DNA of 64,000 nucleotides from the human T2T-CHM13v2.0 reference genome, Homo sapiens (GCF_009914755.1 NC_060935.1), one strand, 5' to 3'. Shown: positions 33,425 to 64,000, numbered from the stretch's first letter. Notes: generated from the sequence alone by a model not told the origin. Program-made: numbers and translations.

Positions 33425-33640
33425 TTTTTTTTTTTATTATACTTTAAGTTTTAGGGTACATGTGCACGTTGTGCAGGTTAGTTACATATGTATACATGTG
33501 CCATGCTGGTGCACTGCACCCACTAACTCGTCATCTGGCATTACGTATATCTCCCAATGCTATCCCTCCCCCCTGCCCCCACCCCACAACAGTCCCCAGA
33601 GTGTGATATTCCCCTTCCTGTGTCCATGTGATCTCATTGT

Positions 33641-36600
33641 TCAATTCCCACCTATGAGTGAGAATATGCGGTGTTTGGATTTTTGTTCTTGCGATAGTTT
33701 ACTGAGAATGATGATTTCCAGTTTCATCCATGTCCCTACAAAGGACATGAACTCATCATTTTGTATGGCTGCATAGTATTCCATGGTGTATATGTGCCAC
33801 ATTTTCTTAATCCAGTCTATCATTGTTGGACATTTGGGTTGGTTCCAAGTCTTTGCTATTGTGAATAATGCCGCAATAAACATACGTGTGCATGTGTCTT
33901 TATAGCAACATGATTTATAGTCCTTTGGGTATATACCCAGTAATGGGATGGCTGGGTCAAATGGTATTTCTAGTTCTAGATCCCTGAGGAATCGCCACAC
34001 TGACTTCCACAATGGTTGAACTAGTTTACAGTCCCACCAACAGTGTAAAAGTGTTCCTATTTCTCCACATCCTCTCCAGCACCTGTTGTTTCCTGACTTT
34101 TTAATGATTGCCATTCTAACTGGTGTGAGATGGTATCTCATTGTGGTTTTGATTTGCATTTCTCTGATGGCCAGTGATGATGAGCATTTTTTCATGTGTT
34201 TTTTGGCTGCATAAATGTCTTCTTTTGAGAAGTGTCTGTTCATGTCCTTCGCCCACTTTTTGATGGGGTTGTTTGTTTTTTTCTTGTAAATTTGTTTGAG
34301 TTCATTGTAGATTCTGGATATTAGCCCTTTGTCAGATGAGTAGGTTGTGAAAATTTTCTCTGATTCCGTAGGTTGCCTGTTCACTCTGATGGTAGTTTCT
34401 TTTGCTGTGCAGAAGCTCTTTAGTTTAATTAGATCCCATTTGTCAATTTTGTCTTTTATTGCCATTGCTTTTGGTGTTTTGGACATGAAGTCCTTGCCCA
34501 TGCCTATGTCCTGAATGGTAATGCCTAGGTTTTCTTCTAGGGTTTTTATGGTTTTAGGTCTAACGTTTAAGTCTTTAATCCAACTTGAATTGATTTTTGT
34601 GTAAGGTGTAAGGAAGGGATCCAGTTTCAGCTTTCTACATATGGCTAGCCAGTTTTCCCAGCACCATTTATTAAATAGGGAATCCTTTCCCCATTGCTTG
34701 TTTTTCTCAGGTTTGTCAAAGATCAGATAGTTGTAGATATGCGGCGTTATTTCTGAGGGCTCTGTTCTGTTCCATTGATCTATATCTCTGTTTTGGTACC
34801 AGTACCATGCTGTTTTGGTTACTGTAGCCTTGTAGTATAGTTTGAAGTCAGGTAGTGTGATGCCTCCAGCTTTGTTCTTTTGGCTTGGGATTGCCTTGGC
34901 GATGCAGGCTCTTTTTTGGTTCCATATGAACTTTAAAGTAGTTTTTTCCAATTCTGTGAAGAAAGTCACTGGTAGCTTGATGGGGATGGCATTGAATCTG
35001 TAAATTACCTTGGGCAGTATGGCCATTTTCACGATATTGATTCTTCCTACCCATGAGCATGGAATGTTCTTCCATTTGTTTGTATCCTCTTTTATTTCCT
35101 TGAGCAGTGGTTTGTAGTTCTCCTTGAAGAGGTCCTTCACATCCCTTGTAAGTTGGATTCCTAGGTATTTTATTCTCTTTGAAGCAATTGTGAATGGGAG
35201 TTCACTCATGATTTGGCTCTCTGTCTGTTGTTGGTCTATAAGAATGCTTGTGATGTTTGTACATTGATTTTGTATCCTGAGAGTTTGCTGAAGTTGCTTA
35301 TCAGCTTAAGGAGACTTTGGGCTGAGACAATGGGGTTTTCTAGATATACAATCATGTCATCTGCAAACAGGGACAATTTGACTTCCTCTTTTCCTAATTG
35401 AATACCCTTTATTTCCTTCTCCTGCCTGATTGCCCTGGCCAGAACTACCAACACTATGTTGAATAGGAGTGGTGAGAGAGGGCATCCCTGTCTTGTGCCA
35501 GTTTTCAAAGGGAGTGCTTCCGGTTTTTGCCCATTCAGTATGATATTGGCTGTGGGTTTGTCATAGATAGCTCTTATTATTTTGAAATACGTCCCATTAA
35601 TACCTAATTTATTGAGAGTTTTTAGCATGAAGGGTTCTTGAATTTTGTCAAAGGCCTTTTCTGCATCTATTGAGATAATCCTGTGGTTTTTGTCTTTGGC
35701 TCTGTTTATATGCTGGATTACATTTATTGATTTGCGTATATTGAACCAGCCTTGCATCCCAGGGATGAAGCCCACTTGATCATGGTGGATAAGCTTTTTG
35801 ATGTGCTGCTGGATTCGGTTTGCCAGTATTTTATTGAGGATTTTTGCATCAATGTTCATCAAGGATATTGGTCTAAAATTCTCTTTTTTTGTTGTGTCCC
35901 TGCCCGGCTTTGGTATCAGAATGATGCTGGCCTCATAAAATGAGTTAGGGAGGATTCCCTCTTTTTCTATTGATTGGAATAGTTTCAGAAGGAATGGTAC
36001 CAGTTCCTCCTTGTACCTCTGGTAGAATTCGGCTGTGAATCCATCTGGTCCTGGACTCTTTTTGGTTGGTAAACTATTGATTATTGCCACAATTTCAGCT
36101 CCTGTTATTGGTCTATTCAGAGATTCAACTTCTTCCTGGCTTAGTCTTGGGAGAGTGTATGTGTCGAGGAATGTATCCATTTCTTCTAGATTTTCTAGTT
36201 TATTTGCGTAGAGGTGTTTGTAGTATTCTCTGATGGTAGTTTGTATTTCTGTGGGATCGGTGGTGATATCCCCTTTATCATTTTTTATTGTGTCTATTTG
36301 ATTCTTCTCTCTTTTTTTCTTTATTAGTCTTGCTAGTGGTCTATCAATTTTGTTGATCCTTTCGAAAAACCAGCTCCTGGATTCATTAATTTTTTGAAGG
36401 GTCTTTTGTGTCTCTATTTCCTTCAGTTCTGCTGTGATTTTAGTTATTTCTTGCCTTCTGCTAGCTTTTGAATGTGTTTGCTCTTGCTTTTCTAGTTCTT
36501 TTAATTGTGATGTTAGGGTGTCAATTTTGGATCTTTCCTGCTTTCTCTTGTGGGCATTTAGTGCTATAAATTTCCCTCTACACACTGCTTTGAATGTGTC

Positions 36601-61961: not shown

Positions 61962-64000
61962 GCCACATTTTCTTAATCCAGTCTATCGTTGTTGGACATT
62001 TGGGTTGGTTCCAAGTCTTTGCTATTGTGAATAGTGCCACAATAAACATACGTGCGCATGGGTCTTTATAGCAGCATGATTTATAATCCTTTGGGTATAT
62101 ACCCAATAATGGGATTGCTGGGTCAAATGGTATTTCTAGTTCTAGATCCCTGAGGAATCGCCACACTGACTTCCACAATGGTTGAACTAGTTTACAGTCC
62201 CACCACCAGTGTAAAAGTGTTCCTGTTTCTCCACATCCTCTCTAGCACCTGTTGTTTCCTGATTTTTAATGATTGGCATTCTCACTGGTGTAAGATGGTA
62301 TCTCATTGTGATTTTGATTTGCATTTCTCTGATGGCCAGTGATGATGAGCATTTTTTCATGTGTCTGTTGGCTGCATAAATGTCTTCTTTTGAGAAGTGT
62401 CTGTTCATATCCTTCGCCCACTTGTTGATGGGGTTGTTTGTCTTTTTCTTGTAAATTTGTTTGAGTTCATTGTAGATTCTGGATATTAGCCCTTTGTCAG
62501 ATGAGTAGATTGCAAAAATTTTCTCCCATTCTATAGGTTGGCTGTTCACTCTGATGGTAGTTTCTTTTGCTGTGCAGAAGCTCTTTAGTTTAATTAGATC
62601 CCATTTGTCAATTTTGTCTTTTATTGCCATTGCTTTTGGTGTTTTGGACATGAAGTCCTTGCCCATGCCTATGTCCTGAATGGTAATGCCTAGGTTTTCT
62701 TCTAGGGTTTTTATGGTTTTAGGTCTAACGTTTAAGTCTTTAATCCAACTTGAATTGATTTTTGTGTAAGGTGTAAGGAAGGGATCCAGTTTCAGCTTTC
62801 TACATATGGCTAGCCAGTTTTCCCAGCACCATTTATTAAATAGGGAATCCTTTCCCCATTGCTTGTTTTTCTCAGGTTTGTCAAAGATCAGATAGTTGTA
62901 GATATGCGGCGTTATTTCTGAGGGCTCTGTTCTGTTCCATTGATCTATATCTCTGTTTTGGTACCAGTACCATGCTGTTTTGGTTACTGTAGCCTTGTAG
63001 TATAGTTTGAAGTCAGGTAGTGTGATGCCTCCAGCTTTGTTCTTTTGGCTTGGGATTGCCTTGGCGATGCAGGCTCTTTTTTGGTTCCATATGAACTTTA
63101 AAGTAGTTTTTTCCAATTCTGTGAAGAAAGTCACTGGTAGCTTGATGGGGATGGCATTGAATCTGTAAATTACCTTGGGCAGTATGGCCATTTTCACGAT
63201 ATTGATTCTTCCTACCCATGAGCATGGAATGTTCTTCCATTTGTTTGTATCCTCTTTTATTTCCTTGAGCAGTGGTTTGTAGTTCTCCTTGAAGAGGTCC
63301 TTCACATCCCTTGTAAGTTGGATTCCTAGGTATTTTATTCTCTTTGAAGCAATTGTGAATGGGAGTTCACTCATGATTTGGCTCTCTGTCTGTTGTTGGT
63401 CTATAAGAATGCTTGTGATTTTTGTACATTGATTTTGTATCCTGAGAGTTTGCTGAAGTTGCTTATCAGCTTAAGGAGATTTTGGGCTGAGACAATGGGG
63501 TTTTCTAGATATACAATCATGTCATCTGCAAACAGGGACAATTTGACTTCCTCTTTTCCTAATTGAATACCCTTTATTTCCTTCTCCTGCCTGATTGCCC
63601 TGGCCAGAACTACCAACACTATGTTGAATAGGAGTGGTGAGAGAGGGCATCCCTGTCTTGTGCCAGTTTTCAAAGGGAGTGCTTCCGGTTTTTGCCCATT
63701 CAGTATGATATTGGCTGTGGGTTTGTCATAGATAGCTCTTATTATTTTGAAATACGTCCCATTAATACCTAATTTATTGAGAGTTTTTAGCATGAAGGGT
63801 TCTTGAATTTTGTCAAAGGCCTTTTCTGCATCTATTGAGATAATCCTGTGGTTTTTGTCTTTGGCTCTGTTTATATGCTGGATTACATTTATTGATTTGC
63901 GTATATTGAACCAGCCTTGCATCCCAGGGATGAAGCCCACTTGATCATGGTGGATAAGCTTTTTGATGTGCTGCTGGATTCGGTTTGCCAGTATTTTATT
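61962..64000 (-). pseudogene. ORF2: Partial unit 6 (chimeric ORF2 3' half), cut by the window edge
   Basis: Host segment followed by young-L1 private lesions (TAG at 63401), so this is another repeat unit rather than the host remainder. Confidence 0.92.

What the first reader, a model, noticed from the sequence alone, without database searches (positions are those of the whole stretch)
33425..64000. A LINE-1 macrosatellite: at least 6 near-identical head-to-tail L1 units with an exact 5,633-bp period
Seen: over 30 kb of one L1-derived unit repeated with no spacer DNA, identical junctions (…CCATCTTGGCTCCTCCTTC|GCCACATTTTCTTAATCC…), shared private mutations and only a few inter-unit differences. 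Known: L1s normally spread as dispersed single insertions by target-primed reverse transcription (TPRT), each with its own poly-A tail and TSD. Inference: this retrotransposition-dead L1 has amplified at the DNA level as a satellite, and is probably a copy-number-variable locus that short-read assemblies would collapse.
Basis: partly seen in the sequence, partly recalled or inferred. Interest (0 to 1): 0.92.

Follow-up and report, generated by a model that had tools for sequence, protein, structure and literature searches.

The report
Polymorphic LINE-1 tandem array, chromosome 11
A real 99-kb block of 18 head-to-tail LINE-1 copies on human chromosome 11, already reported in a 2026 preprint, that most likely arose when one L1 jumped into an older L1 and the two copies then recombined unequally.

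Summary
From window 33796 a 5,633-bp L1-derived unit (antisense on the + strand) repeats with no spacer. All 5 in-window junctions carry the same 37-mer. In the whole assembly that 37-mer occurs 17 times, all here, giving 18 units that end at chr11:94,248,304.

The array is already in print. bioRxiv 10.64898/2026.05.14.725010 reports 16 back-to-back L1HS copies in CHM13, 0-15 across 94 HPRC haplotypes, and intact ORF1.

What I add is the origin.
- The leftmost copy (B) is a full-length young L1 with a poly-A tail.
- B sits inside an older, 5'-truncated L1 (A), in the same orientation, flanked by a 13-bp target-site duplication (12 of 13 identical).
- The array junction is simply B's 5' end meeting A.
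- Interior units are A/B hybrids: A-type in columns 1-581, B-type in the rest.
- The first unit is pure B. The last unit keeps A-type sequence in columns 2022-2752 and stops at A's truncation point.

This fits nested retrotransposition followed by unequal homologous recombination and recent expansion from one founder unit; the 16 interior units differ by a mean of 2.0 sites.

ORF2 is broken, and interior units lack the 3' end. ORF1 is open in 16 of 17 full units. Novelty is low and interest moderate.

The parts
33041..33424 (-). a': the 3' end (poly-T 33041-33050 on the + strand) of the older resident L1 'A', cut off by the insertion of B
   Evidence: It aligns to the 3' end of B (33425-33808) at 88.3% over 384 nt without gaps. 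Its nearest dispersed L1 copies in the genome are only 93-94% identical.
33412..33424 (.). Left copy of the 13-bp target-site duplication of B (GCCATATTTTCTT)
   Evidence: Read directly from the sequence. It matches 39430-39442 at 12 of 13 bases. The site reads TCTT/AATCC, a variant of the L1 endonuclease site TTTT/AA (consensus recalled, not from a call).
33425..39429 (-). B: a full-length young L1 of 6,005 bp (11-nt poly-A tail, 3' UTR, broken ORF2, ORF1, 890-nt 5' UTR). Its part 33796-39429 is unit U1.
   Evidence: The poly-T is at 33425-33435. The 5' end lies at the canonical L1 terminus, judged against 30 of 30 sampled dispersed copies. Nearest dispersed copies are 98-99% identical.
37523..38539 (-). 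ORF1 of U1 (338 aa, open). The same ORF is at 43156-44172 in U2, and so on through the array.
   Evidence: ORF list. Pfam hits Transposase_22 7.5e-65, Tnp_22_dsRBD and Tnp_22_trimer. About 97% identical to solved human L1 ORF1p 2yko over residues 106-329. Open in 16 of 17 full units.
33641..37459 (-). ORF2 remnant of U1/B, with a stop at codon 133 and two frameshifts
   Evidence: Read-through translation. The pieces hit Exo_endo_phos 6.8e-9 and RVT_1 7.9e-43.
39430..39442 (.). Right copy of the target-site duplication (GCCACATTTTCTT). It is the first 13 bases of every later unit.
39411..39447 (.). Array junction: the 5' terminus of L1 B joined to internal position ~5633 of L1 A. It recurs at 45044, 50677, 56310 and 61943.
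   Evidence: 17 exact copies genome-wide, all in this array.
39430..45062 (-). U2, an interior hybrid unit of 5,633 bp: columns 1-581 are A-type (39430-40009) and the rest is B-type
   Evidence: Unit alignment. The A-type segment is 96% identical to its nearest dispersed copies, against 98-99% for the B-type segment in the same columns. The middle segment is 98%.
45063..50695 (-). U3, an interior hybrid unit
   Evidence: It carries private variants at 45089 and 45230, and ORF1 T30M.
50696..56328 (-). U4, an interior hybrid unit
56329..61961 (-). U5, an interior hybrid unit and the only one whose ORF1 is interrupted (variant at 60927)
61962..64000 (-). U6, cut by the window end. The array runs on to chr11:94,248,304, which is window coordinate 132304.

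Best explanation
This is a DNA-level tandem array (macrosatellite) of an L1-derived 5,633-bp unit. It has 18 units spanning 98.5 kb in CHM13.

**Proposed history**
1. An older L1 ('A'), 5'-truncated to about 3.1 kb, was resident on the minus strand.
2. A young full-length L1 ('B') inserted by ordinary target-primed reverse transcription into A. It went in with the same orientation, about 375 bp from A's 3' end, at a TCTT/AA site, and made a 13-bp target-site duplication. This placed B's 5' terminus directly against A's internal sequence. It also created two long direct repeats about 93-95% alike: B columns 1-2750 and A columns 1-2750.
3. Homologous exchange between B and A followed. The most economical version is one gene-conversion patch that copied B columns 582-2021 into A, giving 1.44 kb of perfect identity, and then an unequal crossover inside that patch. 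This produced a hybrid unit made of A columns 1-581 plus B columns 582-5633.
4. One such hybrid acquired two substitutions (columns 1460 and 1520) and was then amplified by repeated unequal sister-chromatid or interhomologue exchange to 16 near-identical interior copies.

**Shown**
- The anatomy, the target-site duplication and the poly-A tail.
- The junction lying at the canonical L1 5' end.
- The three-segment mosaic.
- The older age of all three A-type segments.
- The near-identity of the interior units.

**Inferred**
- The order of events.
- Conversion patch versus two separate crossovers.
- The timing: about 10^5 years for the expansion, from 0.036% mean pairwise difference and a recalled mutation rate of about 0.5e-9 per bp per year.

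**Function.** The array is most likely a neutral, unstable structural polymorphism lying in an intron of lncRNA LOC105369435, on the opposite strand. It cannot retrotranspose on its own. It does multiply L1 5' UTR promoters and open ORF1 copies 16-fold. Because interior units lack the L1 poly-A signal, transcripts started in one unit would be expected to read into the next. That last point is inferred and not tested.
For: **Anatomy**
- The junction 37-mer occurs 17 times and only here.
- None of the 17 junctions has a poly-A or a 3' end.
- B's poly-T is at 33425-33435. It is preceded by GCCATATTTTCTT, and each later unit opens with GCCACATTTTCTT.
- a' aligns without gaps to B's 3' end and stops exactly at unit column 13.

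**The junction is the true L1 5' terminus**
- In 30 of 30 sampled dispersed L1s carrying the same 5' UTR 27-mer, homology ends 1-4 nt after it, as it does at the junction.

**Mosaic**

| Unit vs interior majority | cols 1-581 | cols 582-2021 | cols 2022 onward |
|---|---|---|---|
| U1 | 29 substitutions + 1 indel | 2 | 0 (to col 5638) |
| U18 | 2 | 3 | 47 substitutions + 8 indel columns (to col 2752), then L1 homology ends |

**Age polarity, by nearest dispersed copies in the same genome**
- B-type segments: 98-99%. The shared middle segment: 98%.
- A-type segments: a' 93-94%, U2 columns 1-580 96%, U18 columns 2022-2748 93-95%.
- The resident element is therefore older than the inserted one, as nesting requires.

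**Flanks**
- The DNA left of a' and the DNA right of U18 map collinearly, 28 nt apart, on one diverged paralogous repeat at chr1:60.05 Mb.
- The right flank matches at 77%, E 6e-7. The left flank is weak: 6 of 300 shuffles reach its score.

**Recent single-founder expansion**
- The 16 interior units share T,T at columns 1460/1520 where U1 and U18 have G,C.
- They differ from each other by a mean of 2.0 sites per 5,633 bp.

**Independent support**
- The preprint reports 16 L1HS units in hs1 flanked by an L1PA2 and an L1P1, and 0-15 units in HPRC haplotypes. That is what a B / hybrid units / A layout predicts.
Against: - A's own target-site duplication is not visible. Its 5' end abuts TTAAAAAAAA, and its poly-T is preceded by GGAAA. 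That a' and the A-type part of U18 are one element therefore rests on three things: the matching breakpoint, similar divergence, and a weak flank-collinearity test against a single paralog.
- A/B divergence is uneven: 5.2% in columns 1-581, 6.4% plus indels in columns 2022-2752, and 11.7% in the 3' end. I attribute this to the fast-evolving 3' UTR but did not test it.
- The two copies of B's target-site duplication differ at 1 of 13 bases.
- The age test scores only the 40 best candidates per search and reports rounded identities.
- A-type sequence for columns 582-2021 is absent from this haplotype, so the first crossover point cannot be fixed. A conversion patch cannot be told from two crossovers.
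- My mapping of the preprint's 'L1PA2' and 'L1P1' flanks onto U1 and U18 is an assumption. Its figure and supplements were not visible to me.
- No reads, methylation data or RNA data were available, so nothing about activity is shown.
Confidence: 0.8

Rival explanations
1. One retrotransposition event with template switching. The reverse transcriptase reached the 5' end of one L1 RNA and jumped to an internal position of a second L1 RNA, making the head-to-internal dimer in a single step. The dimer then expanded by unequal exchange.
For: It would also place an L1 5' terminus against internal L1 sequence with no poly-A between them. L1 template switching is known (recalled, not from a call).
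Against: - It does not explain the older L1 3' fragment a' directly left of B's poly-A, which ends at the same L1 position with a 13-bp overlap.
- Both templates would have been active, young RNAs. Yet the A-type segments are 93-96% identical to their nearest relatives, against 98-99% for B-type.
Confidence: 0.05
2. A non-homologous tandem duplication (replication slippage or end joining) of a 5.6-kb piece of a single L1, followed by expansion.
For: One identical breakpoint in all 17 junctions is what a single founding duplication gives.
Against: - One breakpoint falls within 1-4 nt of the natural L1 5' terminus. The other falls at a TCTT/AA endonuclease-type site with a 13-bp overlap to a'. 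An arbitrary breakpoint pair would not be expected to do both.
- A single-element origin cannot give two sequence types of different age arranged as end-specific mosaics.
Confidence: 0.04
3. An assembly expansion artefact: the true locus has one or a few units.
For: Near-identical 5.6-kb repeats are hard to assemble, and I had no reads.
Against: - There are 10 distinct sequences among the 16 interior units, with ordered private variants and one 1-bp-shorter unit.
- Independent HPRC assemblies show arrays of up to 15 units.
Confidence: 0.02
4. Repeated independent L1 insertions into the same hotspot, each new copy landing in the previous one.
For: The same internal L1 site was hit at least once elsewhere (L024, chr1:48.03 Mb).
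Against: - Every insertion would bring its own 3' end, poly-A and target-site duplication. None of the 17 junctions has them.
- The units share the same ORF2 lesions and hybrid structure.
Confidence: 0.01

Closest known systems
[quoted passage not shown] I read the abstract, section 10, and Discussion and Methods passages.
   Same: - The coordinates enclose this array.
- It reports 16 back-to-back L1HS copies in CHM13, which match U2-U17 here.
- It describes a tandem array made by local duplication rather than retrotransposition.
- Units are over 5 kb, with a 5' UTR and intact ORF1 but no intact ORF2.
- It reports older L1 on both sides.
- It reports 0-15 units in 94 HPRC haplotypes, and none resolved in hg38.
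   Different: - Its main text gives no origin mechanism. The words unequal, NAHR, crossover and homologous recombination occur 0 times, and 'nested' and 'gene conversion' occur only in other contexts.
- It does not mention the target-site duplication, the a' fragment or the hybrid A/B structure in the passages I read.
- It reports two unit groups that never mix on a haplotype, which I could not examine.
- Its figure and supplements were not available to me and may hold more.
Double-insertion model for the birth of satellites from transposable elements (McGurk and Barbash 2018, PMC5932611). I read the abstract and sections 7 and 17.
   Same: - Two transposition events at one place make a tandem TE dimer with a target-site duplicate in the junction.
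- The dimer is the substrate for expansion by unequal exchange.
- They found a hobo array of about 16 copies in one fly line.
   Different: - Their non-LTR dimers are 'tail-to-internal': an intact 3' end next to a 5'-truncated neighbour, formed by insertion beside the first copy.
- Here the second L1 landed inside the first. The junction is head-to-internal, and the repeat unit lacks the L1 3' end.
- Here the two elements differ in age by several percent.
- This is human L1, not Drosophila.
Human macrosatellites such as D4Z4, DXZ4 and the TE-derived SST1. The Hoyt et al. preprint 10.1101/2021.07.12.451456, of which I read passages only, calls SST1 a TE-derived macrosatellite and attributes such arrays to unequal crossing over.
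   Same: A kilobase-scale unit, a head-to-tail array of tens of units, copy-number polymorphism, and high identity between units.
   Different: - The unit here is a nearly whole, recognisable young L1 with promoter and open ORF1.
- The array is a single locus and very young.
- No function or disease link is known.
- The L1 array is not mentioned in the main text of that preprint for the terms I searched.
Dense L1 'arrays' or clusters (Soares et al. 2018, PMC5848613; passages read)
   Same: Regions of 100 kb or more that are mostly L1.
   Different: Those are accumulations of many independent insertions of mixed age and orientation, not head-to-tail copies of one unit.

Membership tests
LINE-1 (primate L1PA/L1HS lineage) element | ORF1 protein with L1 trimerisation, RRM-like and C-terminal domains | tested here: met
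   Pfam hits Transposase_22 7.5e-65, Tnp_22_dsRBD 1e-45 and Tnp_22_trimer 4.3e-32. About 97% identical to human L1 ORF1p chain 2yko_A over residues 106-329.
LINE-1 (primate L1PA/L1HS lineage) element | ORF2 with endonuclease and reverse-transcriptase domains | tested here: met
   Exo_endo_phos 6.8e-9 and RVT_1 7.9e-43 on the ORF2 pieces. The domains are present but the frame is broken: a stop at codon 133 and two frameshifts.
LINE-1 (primate L1PA/L1HS lineage) element | Insertion hallmarks: 3' poly-A tail, target-site duplication, endonuclease-type target | tested here: met
   Met for copy B only: an 11-nt tail, a 13-bp duplication (12 of 13 identical) and a TCTT/AA site. Not met at any of the 17 array junctions, which shows the other units were not made by retrotransposition.
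Retrotransposition-competent L1 | Intact ORF1 and ORF2, plus 3' UTR and poly-A signal | tested here: not met
   ORF2 is broken in all units. Interior units lack the last ~375 bp of L1. ORF1 is open in 16 of 17 full units.
Macrosatellite (large-unit tandem array) | Head-to-tail copies of a kilobase-scale unit with no spacer and many copies | tested here: met
   18 units. 15 of 17 intervals are exactly 5633 bp, and the junctions are identical.
Macrosatellite (large-unit tandem array) | Copy number varies between individuals | not testable with these tools
   Only one assembly is held. The preprint reports 0-15 units in 94 HPRC haplotypes.
TE-dimer-derived satellite (double or nested insertion followed by unequal exchange) | A target-site duplicate of the second insertion lies in or at the tandem junction | tested here: met
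   GCCACATTTTCTT opens every unit, directly after B's 5' end. Its partner GCCATATTTTCTT precedes B's poly-A.
TE-dimer-derived satellite (double or nested insertion followed by unequal exchange) | Two distinct founder elements are recognisable, with the resident one older | tested here: met
   The end-specific mosaic. A-type segments are 93-96% identical to their nearest dispersed copies, against 98-99% for B-type.
TE-dimer-derived satellite (double or nested insertion followed by unequal exchange) | The unexpanded dimer exists as the ancestral allele | not testable with these tools
   The preprint reports haplotypes with 0 array units between the flanking L1s.

The most novel reading that the evidence does not exclude
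The locus preserves every stage of the birth of a human satellite from a transposon:
- the nested insertion with its target-site duplication;
- a 1.44-kb B-to-A conversion patch that created perfect homology;
- the first hybrid unit;
- a single-founder expansion within roughly the last few hundred thousand years.

The unexpanded dimer may still be segregating as the '0-unit' allele.

A bolder corollary follows. The two unit groups that never mix on a haplotype (reported in the preprint) would be products of different A/B exchange points. One would be A columns 1-581 plus B. The other would be A columns 1-2021 plus B. That would mean the array was founded twice, or from reciprocal products of one exchange.

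Sixteen promoter-bearing, ORF1-open units without poly-A signals might also make read-through RNA and ORF1p in amounts that scale with copy number.
Probability: 0.3. Interest if true: 0.6.

Novelty: already known. Interest (0 to 1): 0.4.

Why it matters
How dispersed mobile elements turn into tandem satellites is usually inferred long after the founding events have been erased. Here both founders, the insertion scar and the recombinant unit are still readable. The array varies among living people. The model can therefore be tested directly in pangenome and ape assemblies.

Practically:
- The locus inflates counts of 'young full-length L1'.
- It is collapsed or missing in hg38-based analyses.
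- It supplies up to 16 extra L1 promoters and ORF1 genes per haplotype. These could confound L1 RNA, ORF1p or methylation measurements in proportion to copy number.

The existence and variability of the array are already published, so the added value is the origin mechanism only.

Tried and rejected
- **Literature searches that found nothing on this locus.**
  - LINE-1 + 'tandem array' + PANX1 gave 0 papers.
  - macrosatellite + LINE-1 + 'chromosome 11' + tandem + 'copy number' gave 5 papers (4 listed), none with a title or abstract start on this locus.
  - The six-phrase search for 'LINE-1 array', 'tandem L1' and similar gave 19 papers. Only the 2026 preprint was relevant.
  - The Hoyt et al. 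2021 preprint's main text does not mention it for the terms I tried.
  - PMC10691534 lists chr11 hotspots at other positions only.
  - PMC5848613 concerns dense clusters of independent insertions, not a tandem array.
- **A's own target-site duplication.** I looked for it in the 40-60 nt on each side and saw none.
- **Empty-site test for A.** Paralogous copies of the flanking repeat yielded only one paralog, and the left-flank match is weak.
- **TRF.** With a maximum period of 500 it cannot see the 5.6-kb period. It reported only the 384-bp a'/b' pair, so I used lag identity instead.
- **Subfamily naming.** No L1 subfamily library (RepeatMasker/Dfam) is available. Subfamily names are taken from the preprint and were not tested. 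I used nearest-copy identity as an age proxy instead.
- **Rejected origins.** I rejected template switching, non-homologous duplication, repeated insertion and assembly artefact, for the reasons given under the rival explanations.

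
Full report
**1. Observation**

The window is T2T-CHM13 chr11:94,116,001-94,180,000. Over window 33001-64000, self-identity at a lag of 5,633 bp is 0.967. No other lag from 5000 to 6499 exceeds 0.31.

Units start at 33796, 39430, 45063, 50696, 56329 and 61962. The first interval is 5,634 bp and the others are 5,633 bp. No spacer separates the units.

The six in-window units have 36 variable columns. Of these, 31 separate the first unit from all the others, and U2-U6 differ at 5 sites.

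AT skew is negative throughout. The poly-T followed by the reverse complement of an L1 3' end at 33425 shows that the L1 lies on the minus strand.

**2. Full extent**

The assembly is held as G000. The 37-nt junction occurs 17 times in 3.1 Gb, all forward and all in this array; the reversed control gives 0.

I fetched the next 90 kb. The array has 18 units:
- Fifteen of the 17 intervals are 5,633 bp, one is 5,634 (U1) and one is 5,632 (U14, a 1-bp deletion).
- The 18th unit matches the 17th for only 2,748 bp, at 97.8%, and then L1 homology stops.
- The L1 composite spans chr11:94,149,041-94,248,304, about 99 kb.

**3. What the unit is**

Pfam results:
- The 338-aa ORF carries the three L1 ORF1p domains.
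- The ORF2 pieces carry an endonuclease domain and an RVT_1 domain.

ORF1p is about 97% identical to solved human L1 ORF1p over residues 106-329.

A straight translation of ORF2 shows a stop at codon 133 and two frameshifts. These columns are invariant among units.

Interior units end at an L1 position about 375 bp short of the 3' end. They therefore lack the ORF2 C-terminus, the 3' UTR and the poly-A signal.

ORF1 is open at 338 aa in 16 of 17 full units:
- 14 are identical.
- U3 and U7 carry T30M.
- U5 has a premature stop.

The 5' UTR is 890 nt, 55% G+C, with 29 CpG.

**4. How the junction was made**

The leftmost copy, B (33425-39429), is a complete L1 with an 11-nt tail. Immediately to its left lies a 384-bp L1 3' end, a' (33041-33424), with its own poly-T. 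It is 88.3% identical to B's 3' end without gaps.

a' stops at GCCATATTTTCTT. Every unit after B's 5' end starts with GCCACATTTTCTT. This is a 13-bp overlap at a TCTT/AATCC site. It is what target-primed reverse transcription of B into a resident L1 (A), in the same orientation, would leave. The endonuclease consensus TTTT/AA is recalled, not from a call.

I checked that the other side of the junction is the natural L1 5' terminus. A 27-mer from the 5' UTR occurs 1,367 times in the genome. In 30 of 30 sampled copies, homology ends 1-4 nt beyond it and unrelated flanks follow, as at the array junction.

**5. The mosaic**

I aligned all 18 units and counted differences against the column majority of U2-U17.

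| Unit | cols 1-581 | cols 582-2021 | cols 2022 onward |
|---|---|---|---|
| U1 | 29 substitutions + 1 indel | 2 | 0 (to col 5638) |
| U18 | 2 | 3 | 47 substitutions + 8 indel columns (to col 2752), then L1 homology ends |

There are therefore two sequence types:
- One is confined to the left end of U1.
- The other is confined to the right end of U18 and to columns 1-581 of U2-U18.

**6. Which type is older**

As an age proxy I searched each segment against the whole genome and read the identity of the best dispersed copies. Each search scored 40 candidates.

| Segment | Identity to best dispersed copies |
|---|---|
| B-type 3' end plus cols 1-581 | 97-98% |
| B-type cols 1-581 | 97-99% |
| B-type cols 2022-2748 | 99% |
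| Shared middle, cols 582-2021 | 98% |
| A-type a' | 93-94% |
| A-type U2 cols 1-580 | 96% |
| A-type U18 cols 2022-2748 | 93-95% |

All three A-type pieces are older than B, as a resident element must be. The middle segment is B-type. This gives:
- Interior units are A(1-581) + B(582-5633).
- U1 is pure B.
- U18 is A(1-581) + B(582-2021) + A(2022-2752).

**7. Flanks**

A's own target-site duplication is not evident.

The DNA right of U18 matched one diverged paralogous repeat, at chr1:60.05 Mb (77%, E 6e-7). The DNA left of a' aligns to the same paralog, on the same strand, 28 nt upstream. The locus itself has 18 nt between the corresponding points. That left-flank alignment is weak: 6 of 300 shuffles reach its score. 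This gives modest support that a' and the A-type end of U18 bracket a single old insertion.

**8. Mechanism**

The nested insertion created two direct repeats, about 93-95% alike, lying side by side.

Both mosaic boundaries (581/582 and 2021/2022) are explained most simply in two steps. First, one gene-conversion patch copied B columns 582-2021 into A. Then unequal crossovers inside that 1.44-kb identical tract occurred. Any such crossover yields exactly the observed hybrid unit and leaves U1 pure B and U18 as patched A. Two separate crossovers would also fit, and I cannot tell the two versions apart in one haplotype.

All 16 interior units carry T,T at columns 1460/1520 where U1 and U18 carry G,C. 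They differ from each other by a mean of 2.0 sites per 5,633 bp, with 10 distinct sequences. They therefore descend from one founder unit. With a recalled rate of about 0.5e-9 per bp per year, that descent took on the order of 10^5 years. This is an inference.

In a sample of 30 L1 5' ends:
- Three abut an older L1 in the same orientation. One of them (L024, chr1:48.03 Mb) is at the same internal site. The resident copies there are only 68-79% identical.
- Two abut an L1 in the opposite orientation.

Nesting is therefore common. I infer that what is unusual here is that A and B are alike enough to recombine.

**9. What is already known**

A May 2026 preprint (10.64898/2026.05.14.725010) describes this locus. 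I read its abstract, section 10, and Discussion and Methods passages. It reports:
- the interval hs1 chr11:94,140,954-94,254,695;
- 16 back-to-back L1HS copies in CHM13;
- flanking L1PA2 and L1P1 copies;
- 0-15 units across 94 HPRC haplotypes;
- units with a 5' UTR and intact ORF1;
- two unit groups that never mix on a haplotype;
- none resolved in hg38.

This independently supports both the reality of the array and its copy-number variation.

Its main text contains none of the words unequal, NAHR, crossover or homologous recombination. The origin given here does not appear to be stated there. Its figure and supplements were not available to me and may bear on this.

The general model, in which TE dimers made by double insertion seed satellites, is from McGurk and Barbash 2018 (PMC5932611; abstract and sections 7 and 17 read). 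Their non-LTR dimers are tail-to-internal, whereas this one is head-to-internal because the second element landed inside the first.

**10. Verdict**

The array is real, large and polymorphic, but it is already described, so novelty is low.

The origin is well supported by the sequence and is directly testable in pangenome and ape assemblies. It consists of a nested L1-in-L1 insertion, an A/B hybrid unit and a single-founder expansion.

No function is shown. Neutral instability is the most likely reading. Read-through transcription and ORF1p dosage remain untested possibilities.

Noticed in passing
L024 (G000:C1:48027473-48030499, minus strand): Another young full-length L1 has its 5' end abutting an older L1 (69% identical to the unit) in the same orientation, at unit column 4. 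This is the same internal L1 site (…CATTTTCTT/…ATCC) as in the chr11 array, and it suggests a recurrent endonuclease target inside L1 itself. Overall, 3 of 30 sampled L1 5' ends abut a same-orientation L1 and 2 of 30 abut an opposite-orientation one.
   Followed up: partly
window 56329-61961 (U5), variant at 60927: U5 is the only unit of 17 whose ORF1 is interrupted; its longest ORF is 248 aa. U3 and U7 carry ORF1 T30M. Such unit-private variants could serve as tags for unit-specific expression.
   Followed up: partly
L013-L014 (unit U14, window-extended 107026-112657): One unit is 5,632 bp long because of a 1-bp deletion at alignment column 2622. It also carries private substitutions at columns 2775 and 3789, the latter shared with U16.
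   Followed up: no
window 6000-12000 and 17000-19000: There are strongly A-rich (+ strand) and T-rich stretches of low G+C. AT skew is +0.23 to +0.31 in the first and -0.25 to -0.32 in the second. These are probably other L1 fragments in opposite orientations. This was seen only in the composition profile.
   Followed up: no
window 1-64000 and beyond (annotation supplied with the task): The whole array lies in an intron of the predicted lncRNA LOC105369435, which is on the + strand. The L1 units are therefore antisense to it, and L1 antisense-promoter transcripts would run in the lncRNA's direction.
   Followed up: no
window-extended 132305-132470 (L015:8305-8470) and window 32989-33024: Both flanks of the L1 composite resemble one old interspersed repeat. 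Only a single detectable paralog was found, at chr1:60.05 Mb, and its family was not identified.
   Followed up: partly
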